Positions 42,997-52,799 of a stretch of 63,429 nt of DNA are shown piece after piece. The notes under the pieces were generated by a model. The model saw only the letters and a list, made by a program, of their open reading frames with translations, did no database searches and had not been told where the DNA came from. The DNA comes from Gammaproteobacteria bacterium. Lineage in GTDB: Bacteria; Pseudomonadota; Gammaproteobacteria; SZUA-140. A program made the translations under genes and the position numbers. Where the stretch lies: NCBI GenBank assembly GCA_015492435.1, contig WGFB01000009.1, positions 1 through 63,429 on the forward strand. The letters are read 5' to 3'. How positions within the stretch are numbered: position 1 is the stretch's first letter; each line of letters opens with the position of its first letter.

Positions 42997-43386
42997 ATGG
43001 CCACAAAAAAATCTGTCGCCAAAAAGAAAGTAGCAACGAAAAAGAAAGCCGTAGCCAAGAAAAAAGCAGTAGCCAAGAAAAAAGTTGTTAAGAAAAAAGC
43101 CGCAGTCAAAAAGAAAGTCGTAAAGAAGAAAGCTGCCGCCAAGAAGAAAGTCGTAAAGAAGAAAGCCGCAACCAAGAAAAAGGCCGCTGCCAAGAAAAAA
43201 GTCGCAAAGAAAAAAGCAGCGCCCAAAAAGAAGGTAGCCAAGAAAAAAGCCGCCGCCAAAAAGAAAACCGCAAAGAAAAAAGCAGCGCCCAAAAAGAAAG
43301 TAGCCAAGAAAAAAGCCGCCGCCAAGAAAAAGGCCGCGCCGAAAAAGAAAACCGCCAAGAAAAAGGCGGCTGCCAAGAAGAAGTAA
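42997..43386 (+). CDS. Histone H1-like Lys/Ala-rich basic protein (129 aa)
   Basis: GGAGG RBS; 22 KKK triplets, 68 Lys, no acidic or aromatic residue; own terminator. Confidence 0.85.
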   Translation: MATKKSVAKKKVATKKKAVAKKKAVAKKKVVKKKAAVKKKVVKKKAAAKKKVVKKKAATKKKAAAKKKVAKKKAAPKKKVAKKKAAAKKKTAKKKAAPKKKVAKKKAAAKKKAAPKKKTAKKKAAAKKK

Positions 43387-44587: not shown

Positions 44588-45844
44588 TCAATTGTAAAAG
44601 ATACCCTTGAGGATGAAGAAAAATAGAATGGCGAGGAAACCGCCCGCTGGCAGGGTCACCACCCATGACATGAAAATGGTGCGTATGACACGCATATTCA
44701 AGGCCGCGATACCGCGCGCCAGACCCACACCCAACACCGCCCCCACCAGGGTATGGGTAGTGGAAATGGGCAATCCCGTGCCCGACGCCAGCACGACCGT
44801 CGTGGCCGCCGCCAGGGTTGCCGCAAAGCCGCGGCTGGGCGTCAGCTCCGTGATGCGCGTGCCGATGGTGGCAATGACCTTGTGCCCATAGGTTATCAGG
44901 CCAATGACAATACCCACCCCTCCCAGCACCAGGATCCACAAGGGGAGCGCCGACTTCTGGGTCACCGCGCCATCGTGCTCCACGATGCTGACCACGGCGG
45001 CTATGGGACCCACGGCATTGGCCACGTCATTGGATCCGTGGGCAAAGGCCATGGCGCACGCCGTGACCATCATCAACACGGCGAAAACCTTCTCCACATT
45101 GGTAAAGTGAAATTCCTGATCGGCCTTGGGATCGATCTTGATGCGGCGGATGTAGACCTGGCTGACACCCGTAATAATGGCGCCGGCCAAGATGGCGAGC
45201 AGATAACACTCCAGGGTGCTCAGCTCCAGCCCTACATGCTTGAGGCCCTTGAATACCGTCACCAGGGTAATGACAAAACCCGTCAGAAAAATATAGACCG
45301 GCACGAAACGCTTGGCATTGGCGAAGGGATCGCTGGTATCGATGATCAGGCGCTGGACGCTGAGGAAAAGCCCATAGGCGATGGAACCCGCCAGCAATGG
45401 CGACACCACCCAGCTCATGACAATGGTGCCCACCTTGTTCCAATGCACGGCCTCCATGCCGATGCCGACGGCGGCAAAGCCAACGATGGCGCCCACGATG
45501 GAATGAGTCGTGGAGACGGGCCAGCCGAAATATGAGGCCACCAGCAGCCAGATCCCCGCCGCCAGCAGGGAGGCCAGCATGCCATACACCAGCAGTTCAG
45601 GGGTCGCGGCCAGCATATTGGCATCGACCATGCCCTTACGTATAGTCTGGGTCACCTCGCCCCCCGCCAGGAAGGCGCCGGCAAACTCGAAAATGGCGGC
45701 AATGATGACCGCCTGTCTGATGGTCAACGCCCCGGATCCCACCGAGGTCCCCATGGCATTGGCCACGTCGTTGGCGCCAATGCCCCATGCCATGAAAAAC
45801 CCGAAGGCGATCGCCAGAATAATGAAAGTGGTTCCGAAGTCCAT
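44588..45844 (-). CDS. Inorganic phosphate transporter, PiT family
   Basis: GANDVANAMG and HGSNDVANA repeats, PVSTTH / PISTTH. Confidence 0.93.
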   Translation of the reverse strand: MDFGTTFIILAIAFGFFMAWGIGANDVANAMGTSVGSGALTIRQAVIIAAIFEFAGAFLAGGEVTQTIRKGMVDANMLAATPELLVYGMLASLLAAGIWLLVASYFGWPVSTTHSIVGAIVGFAAVGIGMEAVHWNKVGTIVMSWVVSPLLAGSIAYGLFLSVQRLIIDTSDPFANAKRFVPVYIFLTGFVITLVTVFKGLKHVGLELSTLECYLLAILAGAIITGVSQVYIRRIKIDPKADQEFHFTNVEKVFAVLMMVTACAMAFAHGSNDVANAVGPIAAVVSIVEHDGAVTQKSALPLWILVLGGVGIVIGLITYGHKVIATIGTRITELTPSRGFAATLAAATTVVLASGTGLPISTTHTLVGAVLGVGLARGIAALNMRVIRTIFMSWVVTLPAGGFLAILFFFILKGIFYN

Positions 45845-45856
45845 TGCCCAGCCCCG

Positions 45857-46531
45857 CTACTTGGCCAGCATCAGTTGCAGGCGGCTGCCCACCCGCTGGG
45901 CGAGATCGGCGACATCGCCGATCCACTGGATGATCTGATAGAGAAACATGACATCCACCGGCGGCAGAGCCTTCTCGATCTCGAACAACATGGAACGTAT
46001 CTCCACCTGCAGCACATCGGTGTCGTTCTCGATCTTGTTCAACCCCTTGATGAGCCGGGTGACCAGTTTGGCCTCCTGCCCCCTGAATCCCGTCTCCAGT
46101 AGCTCGTCGAACTCGTTGATGACCTTCCGGGCCTGAAGGGCGGCATCGACACTGCGCCTGACATATTTCATCATTTTCTTAGTGAGCGGCTTTGGAATGG
46201 TCATTCTGCGCCCCAGCATCAGGCCGGCGATATCCTTGGCCTTGTTGGCCATGTAATCCTGCATGGCGATGACCTCCAGCAAATCGCGGCGGTCCACTGG
46301 CAGGAACATCCCCTTGGGCAACTGCAACCTCAATTCCCGCTTCAGTTCGTCAGCCTCGTTTTCCAAAGTCACGATGGACTCCTGGAGCGCCTGCATCTGC
46401 CCGTGATCCTGCTGGATCACGGCCTCGAAAAAGGGCACGAGTTGGGAAACGCAGGCTGAGGCACGCTCCATGTGCTGTTGCAGGGGACCGACAGGTGAGC
46501 GGCCAAACATGCGAAACAGGTAATCAGACAT
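45857..46531 (-). CDS. TIGR00153 / DUF47 phosphate transport regulator
   Basis: SP..PLQ.HM, LENEAD.LKR.LR..LP, E..TD..Q; upstream of PiT. Confidence 0.9.
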   Translation of the reverse strand: MSDYLFRMFGRSPVGPLQQHMERASACVSQLVPFFEAVIQQDHGQMQALQESIVTLENEADELKRELRLQLPKGMFLPVDRRDLLEVIAMQDYMANKAKDIAGLMLGRRMTIPKPLTKKMMKYVRRSVDAALQARKVINEFDELLETGFRGQEAKLVTRLIKGLNKIENDTDVLQVEIRSMLFEIEKALPPVDVMFLYQIIQWIGDVADLAQRVGSRLQLMLAK

Positions 46532-46753: not shown

Positions 46754-47818
<1,065 letters not shown>

Positions 47819-47843: not shown

Positions 47844-49007
47844 TCAGCGTTTCCTGGCCACTTTCTTGCGGGTGGCTTTCGCCGCGGTCTTCTTCTTCGC
47901 CGCGGGCTTTTTCTTTACAGCCTTCTTTTTAACCGCCGTCTTTTGCTTTACGGTTTTCTTTTTCGCCGTGACCTTCTTTTTGACCGCGGCCTTCTTTGTT
48001 GCGGCCTTCTTTTTTTTGACGCCCGCCTTCTTCACCGCTTTTTTCTTCGCCGCCGCCTTTTTCTTGGCAGTGGTTTTTCTAGACGTGACCTTTTTCTTGG
48101 CCGGCGCTTTTTTCTTCACCACGGCTTTCTTTTTCACTGTGGCCTTCTTTTTTGTAGTAGCCTTCTTGGCTGCGGGCTTTTTCTTGACCGCTTTAGTGGT
48201 TTTTTTCTTTGCGGCAGCCTTCTTTTTGACGACTTTTTTCTTTGTGTCCGCCTTTTTCTGTGTAGCGGCCTTTGGCTTGGCGCTTACCGCCGCCTTCCTG
48301 GCGGCAGTCTTTTTCCCGGAAGGCACGGAATCCGCCGCTTTCTCGGTTCCTTCCTGCGCCATCGCCCAGTCGATGACCTTGACAATGGCCTTGAAAATAT
48401 CCTGGATCTCTCCCACGCCCTGCACGGTCTTGAGCAGGCCCTGGGTGCGATAATAATCGACAAGCGGCGTCGTCTGATGCTCGTAGACCCTGAGGCGGTT
48501 GCTGATGGTTTCCTCGTTGTCATCGGCGCGATGGCGCAGATTGCCGCCACATTTGTCGCAACGGTCTTCCAGCTTGGGCGGGGAGGTATAGATGTTGTAC
48601 ATCTGCCCGCAGGACTCGCAGGTGCGGCGCCCGGTGATGCGCTGCATCAGCACATCCAGATCGATATCGATGAGCAGCGCCATATCCAGTGGCTTGCCCA
48701 GCTTGGCCAGGGTGTCATCCAGGGCGCGCGCCTGCGCCAGATTGCGCGGAAAGCCGTCCAGGATGAAGCCGTCCCGCGTATCGTCCTCTTCCAGGCGCTC
48801 GCGTATCATGCCCAGCACGATTTCATCGGAAACCAGCCGCCCGGCGTCCATGGCCGCCCTGGCCTGCAGGCCCAGGGGCGTGCCCGCCTTGACCGCCGCG
48901 CGCAGCAGATCTCCCGTTGAAATCTGCGGTACATGGTACTTGCTGGCCATCAGTTTGCCCTGCGTTCCCTTCCCCGACCCCGGCGCTCCCAGCAGCACAA
49001 TTCTCAT
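47844..49007 (-). CDS. adk: Adenylate kinase with Cys4 LID and a C-terminal ~174-aa histone-H1-like tail
   Basis: GAPGSGKGTQ, STGDLLR, LDGFPR, CESC...CDKC, DD....NRL; then uninterrupted K/A/V/T-rich tail. Confidence 0.93.
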   Translation of the reverse strand: MRIVLLGAPGSGKGTQGKLMASKYHVPQISTGDLLRAAVKAGTPLGLQARAAMDAGRLVSDEIVLGMIRERLEEDDTRDGFILDGFPRNLAQARALDDTLAKLGKPLDMALLIDIDLDVLMQRITGRRTCESCGQMYNIYTSPPKLEDRCDKCGGNLRHRADDNEETISNRLRVYEHQTTPLVDYYRTQGLLKTVQGVGEIQDIFKAIVKVIDWAMAQEGTEKAADSVPSGKKTAARKAAVSAKPKAATQKKADTKKKVVKKKAAAKKKTTKAVKKKPAAKKATTKKKATVKKKAVVKKKAPAKKKVTSRKTTAKKKAAAKKKAVKKAGVKKKKAATKKAAVKKKVTAKKKTVKQKTAVKKKAVKKKPAAKKKTAAKATRKKVARKR

Positions 49008-49222
49008 TTGCCTTTACCCCGCTTTTCTCTGTACCTGAGCCTTTATTATTCGCCTTGAAAAACAGGCTGTTATATTTTATCTACCACATTGGGCGCGTAA
49101 CAGGGTAACCATGCAGCGGACAGTTTGCAACCGTGACGCCCCTTTGTCCCTCCCTTACCATCCGTCTAGCCATCCAATTCTCCACGCGACCATCCCGACT
49201 CCTGGCGGAAAATGCGGGCTAG

Positions 49223-49316
49223 GAGGCTGTCGGACTTAGGTGATCGTAGCGAGGCGAGTGGGAAATGGGCTCATTTCACGCCGCCGCAGTAGATTCATCC
49301 TAAGTCCGACAGCCTC
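49223..49316. mobile_element. MITE family B (94 bp)
   Basis: Perfect 18-bp TIRs GAGGCTGTCGGACTTAGG / CCTAAGTCCGACAGCCTC, CTAG on both sides. Confidence 0.85.
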
Positions 49317-49472
49317 CTAGCGCGGCTTCAATTTCATTCCCAGCCGAGTATTGTATGCTTATACCGTTTTTTTGACGGGATGAAAAGCTCGCTTGCGTGC
49401 GTGTTGCCCGTGGGCCATGCTATCTATTTTGCGCGAGAGCAAAACTGCAGCCATCACCGGAGGGAGAGAACA

Positions 49473-50738
49473 ATGACTAAAAAGAAAAATGCCTTTTATG
49501 CCCAGTCTGGAGGCGTCACCGCCGTCATCAACGCCACCGCCTGCGGAGTGATCGAGACGGCGCGTGGCCACAAGGACAAAATCGGCAAGGTGTACGCGGG
49601 CCGTAACGGAATCATTGGCGCCCTGACCGAGGATCTCATCGATACCAGCCGAGAATCCGCCAGCGCCATTGCCGCCTTGCGCCACACTCCGTCCGGAGCC
49701 TTCGGTTCCTGCCGCTACAAACTCAAGGGCCTGGAGGAGAACCGGCGCGAATACGAGCGCCTCATTGCCGTCTTCGAGGCTCATAATATCGGCTACTTCT
49801 TCTATAACGGCGGGGGAGACTCGGCCGACACCTGCCTCAAGGTTTCCCAGCTTTCCGAGCGCATGGGCTATCCCATCCAGGCCATCCATGTTCCCAAGAC
49901 CGTGGACAATGACCTGCCCATCACCGACAACTGCCCCGGCTTCGGCTCGGTGGCCAAATACATCGCGATCTCCACTCTGGAGGCCAGCTTCGACGTCGCC
50001 TCCATGGCCAAGACCTCCACCAAGGTGTTCGTGCTCGAGGTCATGGGCCGCCACGCCGGCTGGATCGCCGCTGCCGGCGGCATGGCCTCCACCGAAAAGG
50101 ACGAACTTCCCATCGTCATCCTCTTTCCCGAGGTGACATTCAACAAGAAACGTTTTCTGGACAAAGTGAAGACCATGGTCAAGGAATTTGGCTATTGTTC
50201 GGTGGTGGTCTCCGAGGGCGTGCGCGACCGCAGTGGCAAATTTCTCGCCGACCAGGGGCTGCGGGACGCCTTCGGGCACGCGCAGTTGGGAGGGGTGGCG
50301 CCCGTGGTGGCCAACATCATCAAGGAAGGCCTGGGATACAAGTATCACTGGGGGGTCGCCGATTACCTGCAGCGCGCCGCGCGCCATATCGCCTCCAAAA
50401 CGGACGTGGAGCAGGCATACGCCATGGGCAGGGCGGCGGTGCAATTCGCCCTGCAAGGCCACAACTCGGTGATGCCCACCATCGTGCGCGCCTCCAACAA
50501 GCCCTACCGCTGGAAAGTGGGCATGGCGCCTCTCAAGAAGGTGGCCAACGTGGAAAAGATGATGCCCAAGAGCTTCATCAGCCGCGACGGCTTCGGCATC
50601 ACCAAGAAGTGCCGCGATTATCTCGCCCCGTTGATGCGCGGGGAAGACTACCCACCCTACAAGGATGGACTGCCGCGCTATGTCCGCCTGAAAAACGTGG
50701 CAGTCAGGAAGAAACTGAACCAGGACTTCAAGATCTGA
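49473..50738 (+). CDS. pfp: 6-phosphofructokinase, predicted pyrophosphate-dependent
   Basis: QSGG..AVIN, NGGGDS, PKTVDND, EVMGRHAGW; start at ATG 49473. Confidence 0.88.
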   Translation: MTKKKNAFYAQSGGVTAVINATACGVIETARGHKDKIGKVYAGRNGIIGALTEDLIDTSRESASAIAALRHTPSGAFGSCRYKLKGLEENRREYERLIAVFEAHNIGYFFYNGGGDSADTCLKVSQLSERMGYPIQAIHVPKTVDNDLPITDNCPGFGSVAKYIAISTLEASFDVASMAKTSTKVFVLEVMGRHAGWIAAAGGMASTEKDELPIVILFPEVTFNKKRFLDKVKTMVKEFGYCSVVVSEGVRDRSGKFLADQGLRDAFGHAQLGGVAPVVANIIKEGLGYKYHWGVADYLQRAARHIASKTDVEQAYAMGRAAVQFALQGHNSVMPTIVRASNKPYRWKVGMAPLKKVANVEKMMPKSFISRDGFGITKKCRDYLAPLMRGEDYPPYKDGLPRYVRLKNVAVRKKLNQDFKI

Positions 50739-50789: not shown

Positions 50790-52799
50790 CTAACCACCCA
50801 GCAGCGGAGCGATCACCAGGCTGACGATCGCCAGCACATTGATCAGGATGTTCATGGAAGGCCCGGAGGTATCCTTGAAGGGATCACCGACGGTGTCACC
50901 CACCACGGCGGCCTTGTGGACATCGGAACCCTTGCCGCCGAGGTTGCCTTTCTCCACATATTTCTTGGCATTGTCCCAGGCGCCTCCGGCATTGGCCATG
51001 GTCAGGGCCAGGAGCACGCCGGCCACCAGGGCGCCACCCAGCATCCCGCCCAGGGCCTGGGGACCGATGCCGAATCCCACCACCACGGGCGCCGATACCG
51101 CCAGGACGCCCGGCAGGATCATCTTTTTCAACGCGGCCTGAGTGGCGATATCCACGCAGCGCTCGTTGTCTGGCTTGGCCGTCCCCTCCAGCAACCCCGG
51201 GATCTCGCGGAACTGGCGGCGGATCTCCTTGATCATGTCGAAAGCCGCGTCACCCACCGCCGTCATGGTCAGAGCTGCCACCAGGAAGGGGAAAATGCCT
51301 CCCAAAAACATGCCCATCAGGACATGGGGATTACCCAGCTCCAGGCTGAAGTTTTCCACATGCAAAGAGACTTCCTGCACATAGGCGGTAATGATGGCCA
51401 ACGCCGCCAGGGCCGCGGCCCCGATGGCGAAGCCCTTGCCGATAGCGGCAGTGGTATTGCCCAGTTCGTCCAGAGAATCGGTGATCTTGCGGGTATCCTC
51501 GCCCAGTTCAGCCATTTCGGCGATCCCGCCTGCGTTGTCCGCCACGGGACCATAGGCATCGATGGCCATGGTGATACCCACCGTGGCCAGCATGCCTACC
51601 GCCGCAATACCCACGCCATAGAGGCCGCATAGTTCACTGGAAACATAGATGATTCCCGCGAGGGTCAACAGAGGCACCACAACGGATTGCATGCCCGTGG
51701 CCAGGCCGGTGATCATCACCGTGGCCGGCCCGGTCTCCCCCGCCTTGGCGATGTGACGCACGGGGGCGGCGGCCGTGTAGTATTCCGTCACCAGACCGAT
51801 GATGATGCCGCCCAAGGAGCCCACCAGCACCGCGCCCCAGGCGGAACCGTGCACGCCCACCATTTTGATGATGAGGTAGGCCAGCAGGATGAAGGCTACC
51901 GAGGCCCCGATGGTGCCGATGCGCAGGGCCACGTCCGCCGCCTTGTTGGAAAACTTTTTCACCATGGCGACGCCGAGCACGGAACAGATCAGGCCACCCG
52001 AGGCCAGCGCCAAAGGCAGGAACATCAGGTCGGCGCGCTCACCCAGGTTGGCGAGTTGCGCCAGGGACATGGTGGAGGCCATGGCAATGGTGGCGATCAT
52101 GGCGCCGCAATAGGACTCGAAAATATCCGATCCCATGCCGGCCACATCGCCCACGTTGTCACCCACGTTGTCGGCGATCACACCCGGATTGCGGGGATCG
52201 TCCTCCGGAATGCCGGCCTCCACCTTGCCCACCAGGTCGGCGCCCACGTCGGCGCTCTTGGTGTAGATGCCGCCGCCCACACGGGAGAACAAGGCGACGC
52301 TGGAGGCGCCCATGCCGAACCCATGGATCTTGGCCGCCGTCTCCGGGTCACCGCCAAAGAAGAGATAGAGGATCCCCAGCCCGAAAAGGCCGATGGACGC
52401 CACCACCAGGCCCATGATGGAACCGCCGAAAAAGGCGACGGTGAGGGCATCGGATGCCCCCTTGGTGTGGGCCGCCTCGGTGGTGCGCACATTGGCCTGA
52501 GTTGCCGTGTACATGCCGATGTACCCGGCCGTCGCCGAACTCAGAGCGCCGACGAGAAAGGCAAAGGTCGTCCCGATCCCCAGGGAGAACAACAGCAAGA
52601 CAGCAACCACCGCGACGAAAATACCCAGCATCCTGTATTCACGGCGTATGAAGACCATGGCCCCCTGGTGGATGGCATCGGCGATCTCCGTTATCTTTCC
52701 CGAGCCGGCGGGATATTCCTTGACCAGTAGATAGATTCGATAGGCTATATACAAGCCTGCGGCGCCGAATAGCGGCGGCAACAAATGAGAAAAGCTCAT
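50790..52799 (-). CDS. hppA: Membrane-bound ion-translocating pyrophosphatase
   Basis: [58 protein letters not shown]. Confidence 0.95.

What the first reader, a model, noticed from the sequence alone, without database searches (positions are those of the whole stretch)
47844..49007. Adenylate kinase fused to a ~174-aa histone-H1-like tail
Seen: complete Adk core (about aa 1-213) continues in frame through a short linker into a K/A/V/T-rich tail (47844-48368) resembling the free protein at 42997 (e.g. KKKVVKKKAAAKKK in both). Established: ordinary bacterial Adk ends near 215 aa. Inference: the tail tethers the enzyme to nucleoid, ribosomes or polyphosphate granules or drives condensates, coupling adenylate balance to a polyanion. 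Two H1-like modules within 5 kb beside a PPi/phosphate cluster may form one polyanion-associated system.
Basis: partly seen in the sequence, partly recalled or inferred. Interest (0 to 1): 0.72.

Follow-up and report, generated by a model that had tools for sequence, protein, structure and literature searches.

The report
Adenylate kinase with histone-H1-like tail
The only adenylate kinase gene of this uncultured autotrophic gammaproteobacterium really does encode a normal enzyme plus a 174-residue, floppy, very positively charged histone-H1-like tail; the fusion is kept in hundreds of relatives, I found no paper on it, and it most likely sticks the enzyme to DNA or RNA rather than to polyphosphate.

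Summary
ORF 47844-49007 (-) encodes 387 aa: a complete Zn-lid adenylate kinase (aa 1-213) followed in frame by a Lys/Ala/Val/Thr tail (43% Lys, net charge about +72, predicted disordered).

It is the genome's only adk. The identical protein occurs in an independent assembly, so it is not an assembly error.

The fusion is common. All 120 best database hits are 307-479 aa. It is present in 10 of 11 genera of the organism's own family and in one clade of sulfur-oxidiser-type Gammaproteobacteria, always beside the pfp (PPi-phosphofructokinase) gene.

- The genome has only three H1-like modules: this tail, the free protein at 42997, and an N-terminal tail on DksA.
- One genus of the family lacks all three, with the tail cleanly absent from the same pfp-adk-hemB locus.
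- This genome and four tailed genera lack both polyphosphate kinases (PPK1, PPK2). The tail-less genus has them.

I therefore favour a non-specific nucleic-acid (nucleoid or RNA) tether over a polyphosphate tether.

The neighbouring H1-like gene is linked to adk only within the genus. I found no literature on tailed Adk.

This is a new variant of a known kind, of moderate interest.

The parts
48369..49007 (-). Adenylate kinase core, aa 1-213: P-loop GAPGSGKGT, NMP-binding and LID arginines, Cys4 zinc lid (C130, C133, C150, C153)
   Evidence: NF001380 298 bits, Pfam ADK and ADK_lid. The catalytic Arg/Asp and four Cys are invariant in a 41-sequence alignment. Best solved relatives are Zn-lid Adks 5g3y and 1zin. 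AF2 pLDDT 82-95.
47847..48368 (-). C-terminal tail, aa 214-387: a short neutral or slightly acidic linker (WAMAQEGTEKAADSVPSG), then a K/A/V/T-rich polycation built of KKK runs separated by 2-3 small residues, ending in ...ATRKKVARKR
   Evidence: Composition and charge. 18- and 33-nt tandem periodicities. pLDDT below 50 and no secondary structure from aa 224. Tails are conserved in presence and composition but not in sequence across homologues.
47844..47846 (-). TGA stop of the fused ORF, 73 nt before the hemB start; no terminator-like site on the minus strand after it
49045..49073 (-). Sigma-70-like promoter match (ATAACA-17-AATAAT) 38 nt upstream of the adk ATG
   Evidence: This is a consensus match only.
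42997..43386 (+). Stand-alone H1-like protein, 129 aa, 53% Lys, 11-residue (33-nt) repeat. It is the same module type as the tail but is not syntenic with adk outside the genus.
49380..50738 (+). pfp (PFK family, PPi-type by context), transcribed divergently from adk. This is the conserved neighbour of this adk clade. The true start is probably the MTKKKN Met near 49473.
   Evidence: Pfam PFK. Adjacent to adk in about 24 related loci, including a SUP05-labelled MAG and the tail-less forms.
50790..52799 (-). hppA, membrane H+/Na+-pyrophosphatase, partner of pfp
   Evidence: Pfam H_PPase 845 bits; synteny. The pfp-hppA pairing is described in PMC4287430.
46754..47770 (-). hemB (porphobilinogen synthase), immediately downstream and probably co-transcribed with adk
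   Evidence: Pfam ALAD. The adk-hemB order is conserved. No terminator lies between them.

Best explanation
The gene encodes one polypeptide with two parts.
- A fully functional Zn-lid adenylate kinase, the cell's only Adk.
- A C-terminal, intrinsically disordered, polycationic tail of about 164 K-rich residues (about +72).

The tail most likely acts as a sequence-non-specific electrostatic tether to nucleic acid: nucleoid DNA and/or RNA.

It is one of three copies of a lineage-specific H1-like module in this genome. The others are a free H1-like protein and an N-terminal tail on the RNA-polymerase factor DksA.

The effect would be to hold a share of Adk, and therefore ATP/ADP/AMP equilibration, in the nucleic-acid-rich phase of the cell. 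The C-terminus leaves the CORE domain away from the moving LID and NMP domains, so catalysis should be unaffected.

**Shown:** the fusion, its intact catalytic core, its disorder, its conservation, its single copy, the co-distribution of the three modules, and the absence of PPK genes.

**Inferred:** binding to nucleic acid, localisation, and any physiological benefit.
For: - **Real and complete.**; independent contig with the identical protein.
- **Only adk in the genome.**. ndk is present with a normal length, so Adk is not standing in for it.
- **Disordered polycation.**
- **Selection on presence and composition, not on sequence.**
  - In close homologues the core is 98% and 92% identical while the tail is 84% and 55% identical, with in-frame indels.
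  - 101 homologue tails are 94-266 aa, with median K 0.35 and D+E 0.02.
  - Tailed Adks form essentially one clade: 36 tailed and 9 untailed rows, and 0 of 500 label shuffles are as clustered.
  - 10 of 11 genera of the family carry the tail.
- **Same module on a nucleoid-acting protein.**
  - DksA carries an about 85-aa K-rich N-terminus (MAVAKKK...) that is conserved across the family.
  - This is the architecture of Streptomyces DdbA, whose H1-like domain is described as DNA-binding (PMC3643593).
- **All-or-none pattern.** Genus g3 has no Adk tail, a plain DksA and zero KKK-periodic DNA matches. 21 of 21 other family genomes have such matches. The g3 adk sits in the same pfp-adk-hemB locus.
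- **PolyP is unlikely as the partner.** No PPK1 or PPK2 in G000-G002, G005, G007, G012, G015, G017, G020 or G022. Both are present in tail-less g3: PPK1 in G004 and G019, PPK2 in G004 and G014.
- **Tested analogues bind DNA or RNA.** AlgP CTD peptides bind DNA (PMC9239181). PhaF CTD binds RNA directly (PMC12818456).
Against: - There is no direct evidence of binding, localisation or even translation of the tail in this organism.
- The joint loss in g3 is a single evolutionary event (n = 1).
- Outside the family the modules are not strictly coupled. G055 has a K-rich DksA extension but a plain Adk. G060 has a tailed Adk but no K-rich DksA extension.
- A +72 tail would bind any polyanion, including anionic lipids and free nucleotides, so DNA, RNA and the others cannot be told apart in silico.
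- PPK absence rests on MAGs 81-99% complete and on two Pfam models.
- Clean loss in g3 shows the tail is dispensable in at least one lineage.
Confidence: 0.5

Rival explanations
1. Polyphosphate tether. The tail docks Adk on polyP granules, so that Adk together with PPK acts as a polyP:AMP phosphotransferase unit, beside the Pit/PhoU-like phosphate genes.
For: - AlgP localises to polyP granules, and granule spacing is lost without its H1-like C-terminal domain (PMC9239181).
- PPK1 overproduction in E. coli gives polyP:AMP phosphotransferase activity through adenylate kinase (review PMC3163519).
- pit and phoU_div lie 1-3 kb away.
Against: - No PPK1 or PPK2 was detected in this genome, its genus, or genera g4 (except a partial PPK2 match in G028), g6 and g11. 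All are tailed, and several are 95-99% complete.
- The tail-less genus g3 has both kinases.
- The pit/phoU-like linkage is also seen with tail-less adk, and it is less conserved than the pfp linkage.
Confidence: 0.12
2. Tolerated low-complexity expansion. Slippage-prone AAG/AAA-rich repeats grew at the 3' end of adk (and at the 5' end of dksA) in a lineage prone to such expansions. They persist because they are harmless and have no specific role.
For: - Tail sequence and length turn over fast, with in-frame indels.
- The coding DNA has 18/33-nt tandem periodicity.
- Genus g3 lost the tail cleanly and keeps a normal Adk.
Against: - The tail is retained in 10 of 11 genera. It is also kept across a clade whose cores have diverged to about 50-60% identity.
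- Composition is tightly held: K median 0.35, acidic residues 2%, always a basic C-terminal end.
- Linker motifs are conserved within sub-clades.
- Only three genes in 2.1 Mb carry such modules, so there is no genome-wide drift.
- An independent gain occurred on a Bacteroidia Adk.
Confidence: 0.13
3. Membrane tether. The polybasic tail binds anionic phospholipids and holds Adk at the inner membrane, next to the H+-PPase and ATP synthase.
For: - adk is tightly linked to pfp-hppA.
- Polybasic tails bind acidic lipids; this rests on general knowledge and was not tested here.
Against: - The same module sits on DksA, a soluble RNA-polymerase factor, and exists as a free H1-like protein. A membrane role does not explain either.
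- The tail has no hydrophobic or amphipathic element.
- The pfp linkage persists without the tail.
Confidence: 0.07
4. Nucleotide-responsive condensate. The polylysine-like tail forms coacervates with ATP or RNA. Partitioning of Adk (and of the free H1-like protein) would then depend on adenylate charge, which the enzyme itself sets.
For: - Polylysine forms coacervates with ATP. These form and dissolve as enzymes interconvert ADP and ATP (PMC9536485).
- The tail is 43% Lys, about +72 and disordered.
Against: - This is purely an analogy with synthetic systems.
- In a cell, RNA and DNA would out-compete ATP for the tail.
- No comparative signal singles out this reading.
Confidence: 0.06
5. Assembly or annotation artefact: a stop codon or frameshift after the core was lost in assembly.
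For: The source is a fragmented MAG of 128 contigs, and reads could not be inspected.
Against: - An identical protein is on an independent Logan contig.
- More than 100 homologous fusions come from unrelated assemblies.
- Composition shifts smoothly, and the linker is conserved in close homologues.
Confidence: 0.01

Closest known systems
Long-type, Zn-lid bacterial adenylate kinase (Bacillus/Geobacillus type; PDB 1zin, 1p3j; reconstructed ancestors 5g3y, 5g3z)
   Same: aa 1-213 align end to end (E 8e-74 to 5g3y). They share the P-loop, all catalytic Arg/Asp and the Cys4 zinc site. The protein passes the NCBIfam equivalog cut-off.
   Different: It carries 174 extra C-terminal residues. The core is closer to Nitrospirota/Actinomycetota-type Adks (58-63% identity) than to ordinary gammaproteobacterial Adks (40-48%).
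AlgP and PhaF of Pseudomonas (H1-like KPAA-repeat C-terminal domains)
   Same: A long, disordered, Lys/Ala-rich C-terminal domain appended to a folded N-terminal domain. The analogues have been tested for DNA binding, RNA binding and polyP- or PHA-granule organisation (PMC9239181, PMC12818456).
   Different: The repeat here is KKK plus 2-3 small residues (5-6 / 11-residue period) with only 3% Pro, not KPAA. The folded partner is a housekeeping metabolic enzyme. The genome lacks detectable PPK.
Streptomyces DdbA (H1-like domain fused to a DksA-like domain)
   Same: This genome's DksA has the same layout: an H1-like N-terminus on a DksA domain. This shows that H1-like modules are used to place soluble factors on the nucleoid (PMC3643593).
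   Different: DdbA is a different protein in a different phylum. It bears on the Adk tail only by co-occurrence in this lineage.
Chlamydial Hc1/Hc2 and eukaryotic histone H1 C-terminal domain
   Same: Lys/Ala-rich, repeat-built, length-variable polycations (PMC2848022). Pfam HC2 hits are recorded on many tailed Adk homologues and, below the cut-off, on the DksA tail.
   Different: The Adk tail itself gives no Pfam HC2 hit at E <= 0.01. The resemblance is compositional and is not demonstrable homology.
Tailed adenylate kinases already in sequence databases (annotated only 'adenylate kinase')
   Same: Same clade, same architecture and same pfp neighbourhood. Earlier notes of this scan describe the same class in other genomes.
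   Different: None in kind: this is one more member. What this genome adds is the three-module census, the joint absence in one genus and the PPK-negative background.

Membership tests
Adenylate kinase (NCBIfam NF001380 / TIGR01351; Pfam PF00406 + PF05191) | Whole-domain profile match above the curated cut-off | tested here: met
   NF001380 298.1 bits against cut-off 251, aa 1-213 on profile 1-213/216. TIGR01351 254 against 168. PF00406 185.5 against 26.8. PF05191 51.8 against 26.6.
Adenylate kinase (NCBIfam NF001380 / TIGR01351; Pfam PF00406 + PF05191) | P-loop GxPGxGKGT plus the catalytic and substrate-binding Arg/Asp (E. coli R36, R88, R123, R156, D158, D159, R167) | tested here: met
   G7-T15, R36, R88, R127/R128, R160, D162, D163 and R171 are present, and invariant or nearly so in 41 homologues.
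Adenylate kinase (NCBIfam NF001380 / TIGR01351; Pfam PF00406 + PF05191) | Structural Zn site of the long LID (Cys4) | tested here: met
   C130, C133, C150 and C153 are invariant. The best solved matches are Zn-lid Adks.
Adenylate kinase (NCBIfam NF001380 / TIGR01351; Pfam PF00406 + PF05191) | Enzymatic activity ATP + AMP <-> 2 ADP | not testable with these tools
   Inferred from the intact residues and from its being the only adk in the genome.
NCBIfam NF010381 (PRK13808, 335-position long adenylate kinase) | Score above the curated cut-off of 426 bits | tested here: not met
   189.2 bits, with the best stretch limited to aa 1-127. It is not a member of that catalogued long-Adk family.
Histone H1-like nucleoprotein HC2 (Pfam PF07382) | Profile match above the gathering score | tested here: not met
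   No HC2 hit for the Adk protein or the free 129-aa protein at E <= 0.01. The DksA tail scores 27.6 bits, below the cut-off of 40. Precomputed HC2 hits exist on many homologues.
Histone H1-like nucleoprotein HC2 (Pfam PF07382) | Lys/Ala-rich, repeat-built, disordered polycation | tested here: met
   43% K, 24% A, pI 11.65, pLDDT below 50, 18/33-nt periodicity.
Histone H1-like nucleoprotein HC2 (Pfam PF07382) | DNA binding and nucleoid condensation | not testable with these tools
   Needs EMSA and localisation experiments.
AlgP/PhaF-type KPAA-repeat C-terminal domain | Tandem KPAA (or KPVA/KTAAA) repeats | tested here: not met
   Pro is 3% of the tail. The unit is KKK plus 2-3 of A/V/T.
AlgP/PhaF-type KPAA-repeat C-terminal domain | Association with a storage granule (polyP or PHA), which requires the polymer-making enzymes | tested here: not met
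   PPK1 (PF02503) and PPK2 (PF03976) were not found in G000 or its genus. PHA synthase was not examined.

The most novel reading that the evidence does not exclude
A whole family of autotrophic Gammaproteobacteria uses one co-inherited polycationic 'address tag' in three forms: a free H1-like nucleoid protein, a tag on Adk and a tag on DksA. The tag would build a nucleoid-associated compartment. In it, adenylate equilibration (Adk) and NTP/ppGpp-sensing control of RNA polymerase (DksA) sit together on the chromosome.

This would be a bacterial counterpart of chromatin-tethered metabolic enzymes. It may also respond to adenylate charge through tail-nucleotide or tail-RNA coacervation.

Genus g3, which dropped all three forms at once, would be the natural knock-out.
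Probability: 0.2. Interest if true: 0.75.

Novelty: new variant of a known kind. Interest (0 to 1): 0.52.

Why it matters
Adenylate kinase is treated as a freely diffusing housekeeping enzyme in bacteria. Targeting of Adk isoforms by terminal extensions is, to my knowledge, known only from eukaryotes.

Here the sole Adk of a large, environmentally important group of autotrophic, sulfur-oxidiser-type Gammaproteobacteria, symbiont lineages included, carries a histone-H1-like polycation. That implies spatial organisation of adenylate metabolism in bacteria.

The genome-level pattern gives a concrete, testable hypothesis and a natural control lineage:
- the same module sits on DksA and exists as a free protein;
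- all three are lost together in one genus;
- there are no polyphosphate kinases.

If the tail is only tolerated low-complexity sequence, the case still documents how such tails spread onto essential genes.

Tried and rejected
- **Assembly error.** Rejected: an identical protein on an independent contig and more than 100 homologous fusions.
- **Second, plain adk in the genome.** None found. Some other families (G053, G060) do have both a plain and a tailed Adk.
- **Adk replacing a missing Ndk.** Rejected: ndk is present with normal length in all 24 family genomes.
- **PolyP link.** Tested through PPK1/PPK2 distribution, which goes against it.
- **Free H1 gene plus adk as one conserved locus.** Rejected: they are linked only within the genus.
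- **Recent duplication between the free H1 gene and the tail.** Rejected: about 68% DNA identity in many registers, typical of repeats with similar codons.
- **Nested internal start producing the tail on its own** (suggested for another genome in note e1-3795118). Here the only candidate, Met216, has no good SD and is not conserved in homologues of 86-92% identity.
- **Amphipathic-helix reading of the 11-residue period.** Dropped: a mental helical-wheel estimate (no tool run) spreads the Lys runs around the helix, and AF2 predicts no structure.
- **APS reductase (PF12139) in the genome.** No hit, but the control genomes did not ring either, so this is inconclusive. I therefore do not claim an APS-pathway role for Adk.
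- **Literature.** Four searches found no paper on a lysine-tailed bacterial Adk.
Full report
**1. What is there**

ORF 47844..49007 on the minus strand starts with ATG and encodes 387 aa (DNA read).

- Residues 1-213 are a complete adenylate kinase.
  - NCBIfam equivalog NF001380 scores 298 bits (cut-off 251) over profile positions 1-213 of 216.
  - TIGR01351 scores 254 bits. Pfam ADK gives 8e-55 and ADK_lid 7.5e-14.
- In an alignment with 40 homologues, the P-loop is nearly invariant (≥90%). R36, R88, R127/R128, R160, D162/D163, R171 and the four zinc-lid cysteines (C130, C133, C150, C153) are invariant.
- The nearest solved structures are Zn-lid Adks of the Bacillus type and their reconstructed ancestors (5g3y 8e-74, 1zin). 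E. coli Adk is clearly more distant.
- Residues 214-387 form the tail: a short linker (WAMAQEGTEKAADSVPSG), then runs of KKK separated by two or three A/V/T/P residues.
  - The K-rich part is 43% K, 24% A, 10% V and 10% T.
  - The tail has pI 11.65 and charge about +72. The core has pI 6.3 and charge -1.
- AlphaFold2 with a 41-sequence alignment gives pLDDT 82-95 for the core. From residue 224 onward it gives pLDDT below 50 with no secondary structure.

**2. Is the observation more than chance or artefact?**

- The string KKKVVKKKAAAKKK is present in both the tail and the free 129-aa protein at 42997-43386.
- The tail-versus-free alignment score lies 10 SD above composition-preserving shuffles.
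- Both proteins, and a third module described below, share Lys-run autocorrelation peaks at lags 5-6, 11, 16-17 and 22. The coding DNA shows 18- and 33-nt periodicities.
- At DNA level the two are only about 68% identical, in many registers, so this is not a recent duplication.
- The exact 387-aa protein is also encoded on an independently assembled Logan contig from run SRR10312498.
- Its 90% cluster has three members.
- Homologues with 86-92% identity from other assemblies have the same fusion.
- No terminator-like site lies on the coding strand between core and tail or after the stop. hemB starts 73 nt downstream.

**3. Distribution**

- The genome (2.12 Mb, 128 contigs, 90.5% complete, 62% GC) has a single Pfam ADK match, so the tailed enzyme is the housekeeping Adk.
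- A search of 5.8 billion proteins returned 6181 hits. The best 120 are all 307-479 aa, and many carry precomputed Pfam HC2 (H1-like) hits.
- In 101 of these hits the tail is 94-266 aa (median 166). Lys fraction is 0.19-0.48 (median 0.35), Ala 0.26, Pro 0.07 and acidic residues 0.02. The tail always ends in a basic cluster.
- Among 60 relatives, Adk open frames are 316-578 aa in 10 of 11 genera of the organism's own family. Only genus g3 (G004, G014, G019) has a plain 222-aa Adk.
- Named records with tailed Adk are MAGs labelled as follows:
  - Chromatiales, Ectothiorhodospiraceae, Acidiferrobacteraceae and Thiotrichaceae;
  - Sedimenticola and Thiohalophilus;
  - a Lamellibrachia endosymbiont and SUP05 Thioglobus.
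- A maximum-likelihood tree of 91 cores puts 36 tailed and 9 untailed sequences in one clade.
  - That clade is sister to tail-less Nitrospirota/Actinomycetota-type Adks (58-63% identity to the query).
  - Ordinary gammaproteobacterial Adks (40-48% identity) lie elsewhere.
  - The label needs at least six changes on the tree, two of them forced by well-supported branches. 0 of 500 shuffles were as clustered.
  - A Bacteroidia Adk (33% core identity) gained a K/A/P tail independently.
- Some genomes of other families (G053, G060) hold both a plain gamma-type Adk and a tailed one.

**4. Evolutionary mode**

- Against the two closest homologues the core is 98% and 92% identical. The tail is 84% identical (with a 29-residue in-frame deletion) and 55% identical.
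- Presence, charge and composition are conserved; sequence and length are not. That is the signature of a compositionally selected disordered region.
- Linker motifs are conserved within sub-clades.

**5. Neighbourhood**

- Pfam assigns the following genes:
  - on the hemB side of adk: pit (44588-45844), phoU_div (45857-46531) and hemB (46754-47770);
  - adk itself;
  - on the pfp side: a PFK-family gene (49380-50738, divergent), the membrane pyrophosphatase (50790-52799), a soluble pyrophosphatase, a CDF transporter and ATP sulfurylase.
- pfp lies next to adk in about 24 related loci, including SUP05-labelled L071 (core 49% identical). It also lies there in tail-less Oceanococcaceae and in genus g3. 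hppA, hemB, phoU-like and pit are often there too.
- The pfp-hppA pair is the known PPi-saving Calvin-cycle module of chemoautotrophic symbionts and methanotrophs (PMC4287430).
- RuBisCO large subunit is present in the genome.
- The adk-pfp linkage is therefore real, but it is a property of this adk clade and not of the tail.

**6. The genome-level pattern**

- A six-frame scan of the whole genome for K-rich windows found four regions.
  - One is a TonB-like Pro/Lys linker.
  - The other three are H1-like modules: the free protein at 42997, the Adk tail, and an about 85-residue N-terminal extension (MAVAKKKTAQKK...) on DksA at C106:14166-14840. Pfam finds DksA_N and zf-dskA_traR in that protein.
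- The DksA extension is conserved across the family, with open frames of 199-377 aa against about 145-170 elsewhere. It is K-rich wherever I read it.
- Genus g3 has a plain DksA (156-162 aa).
- A strict DNA pattern for three KKK runs hits 21 of 24 family genomes. It gives zero hits in exactly the three g3 genomes.
- In g3 the adk gene sits in the same pfp-adk-hemB locus, with hemB beginning within about 40 nt of the stop and no K-rich remnant.
- So the three modules are present together or absent together within the family. This is one loss event, so it is suggestive and not statistical.
- Outside the family the coupling is looser. G055 has a tailed DksA with a plain Adk. G060 has a tailed Adk with an untailed DksA.
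- The free H1-like gene lies within about 5 kb of adk only in the genus (G001, G002). In other genera it is on other contigs or about 35 kb away.

**7. Which polyanion?**

- Tested H1-like tails bind DNA (AlgP peptides; DdbA), RNA (PhaF CTD) or organise polyP/PHA granules. The relevant papers are PMC9239181, PMC12818456 and PMC3643593.
- I tested the polyP option through the enzymes that make polyP.
  - PPK1 (PF02503) and PPK2 (PF03976) are both undetectable in G000, G001 and G002 (genus g1).
  - They are also undetectable in G005, G015 and G020 (g4), G007 (g6), and G012, G017 and G022 (g11). All of these are tailed, and several are 95-99% complete.
  - Tail-less g3 has both: PPK1 in G004 and G019, PPK2 in G004 and G014.
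- This argues against a polyP granule as the selected partner.
- ndk is present everywhere, so Adk is not a stand-in for Ndk.
- The presence of the same module on DksA, which works on RNA polymerase, and as a free H1-like protein points to nucleic acid. I cannot separate DNA from RNA in silico.

**8. Conclusion and mechanism**

- The best-supported reading (about 50%) is that the tail is a non-specific electrostatic tether. It would hold part of the cell's only Adk in the nucleoid/RNA phase, as one of three uses of a lineage-specific H1-like module.
- Rivals:
  - tolerated low-complexity expansion (about 13%);
  - polyP tether (about 12%);
  - membrane tether (about 7%);
  - nucleotide-responsive coacervate, by analogy with polylysine-ATP droplets (PMC9536485; about 6%);
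  - artefact (about 1%).
- Binding, localisation, translation of the tail and any benefit are inferred, not shown.

**9. Novelty**

- Four literature searches found no study of a lysine-tailed bacterial Adk.
- The architecture is abundant in databases under the plain name 'adenylate kinase'.
- Earlier unchecked notes of this scan describe the same class in at least eight other genomes. I reached my reading before seeing them and treat them as leads only.
- One note's idea of a nested internal start does not hold here. Met216 lacks a good SD and is not conserved.
- One note's polyP-metabolon reading is contradicted here by the PPK-negative background.
- I rate this a new variant of a known kind: an H1-like polycationic tail placed on a core metabolic enzyme. 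What this genome adds is the three-module census, the joint loss in one genus and the PPK result.

Noticed in passing
G000:C106:14166-14840 (minus strand; outside the window): DksA carries an about 85-residue H1-like N-terminal extension (MAVAKKKTAQKKTVKKK...). This is the same layout as Streptomyces DdbA. The extension and its MAVAKKK start are conserved across the family and absent in genus g3.
   Followed up: yes
Genomes G004, G014, G019 (genus g3 of the same family); loci L094, L095: This genus lacks the Adk tail, the DksA extension and any KKK-periodic gene, yet keeps pfp-adk-hemB synteny. It has PPK1 and PPK2, which many tailed genera lack. It is a natural 'knock-out' lineage for all H1-like modules.
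   Followed up: partly
window 49215-49324: A 26-nt inverted repeat, 96% complementary with a 58-nt spacer, lies in the divergent pfp/adk promoter region. It is a copy of a MITE-like family. The 22-nt arm CTAGGAGGCTGTCGGACTTAGG has 44 matches (up to 3 mismatches) genome-wide. Many sit about 130 nt from contig ends, and arm spacing falls into two classes (about 80 and about 147 nt).
   Followed up: partly
window 48369-49007 and loci L041-L069: The Adk core of this clade is a Zn-lid type. Its nearest tail-less relatives are Nitrospirota/Thermodesulfovibrionales/Actinomycetota MAGs (58-63% identity), while ordinary gammaproteobacterial Adks are 40-48% identical. Genomes G053 and G060 hold both types. 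This suggests xenologous replacement of adk, possibly together with the pfp cassette.
   Followed up: partly
whole genome G000: No PPK1 or PPK2 was detected, although a Pit transporter and a PhoU_div gene lie next to adk. RuBisCO large subunit is present (C87:10344-11270). The APS-reductase beta C-domain was not found, but that search had no positive control.
   Followed up: partly
window 42997-43386: The free H1-like protein (129 aa, 53% Lys, near-perfect 11-residue repeat) is not in the 15-billion-protein collection as an exact sequence. Gene callers may be skipping it.
   Followed up: no
loci L038 and L023: Two Adk homologues have very long tails (481 and 544 aa) with low Lys (6-7%) and Pro/Ala-rich starts. 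L038 is labelled Candidatus Aminicenantes but its Adk sits inside the gammaproteobacterial clade, so the contig may be mis-binned.
   Followed up: no
locus L087 (G053:C1, about 2651000-2655000): The tailed Adk of another family has a different repeat type, AAKKEVKEIKKQAKAIGKKV, which mixes charges and looks potentially helical. The tail is therefore not one uniform sequence class.
   Followed up: no
window 49380-49472: The pfp ORF as listed begins 31 codons upstream of a more plausible start (MTKKKNAFYAQSGG). The upstream part overlaps the intergenic region near the MITE.
   Followed up: no
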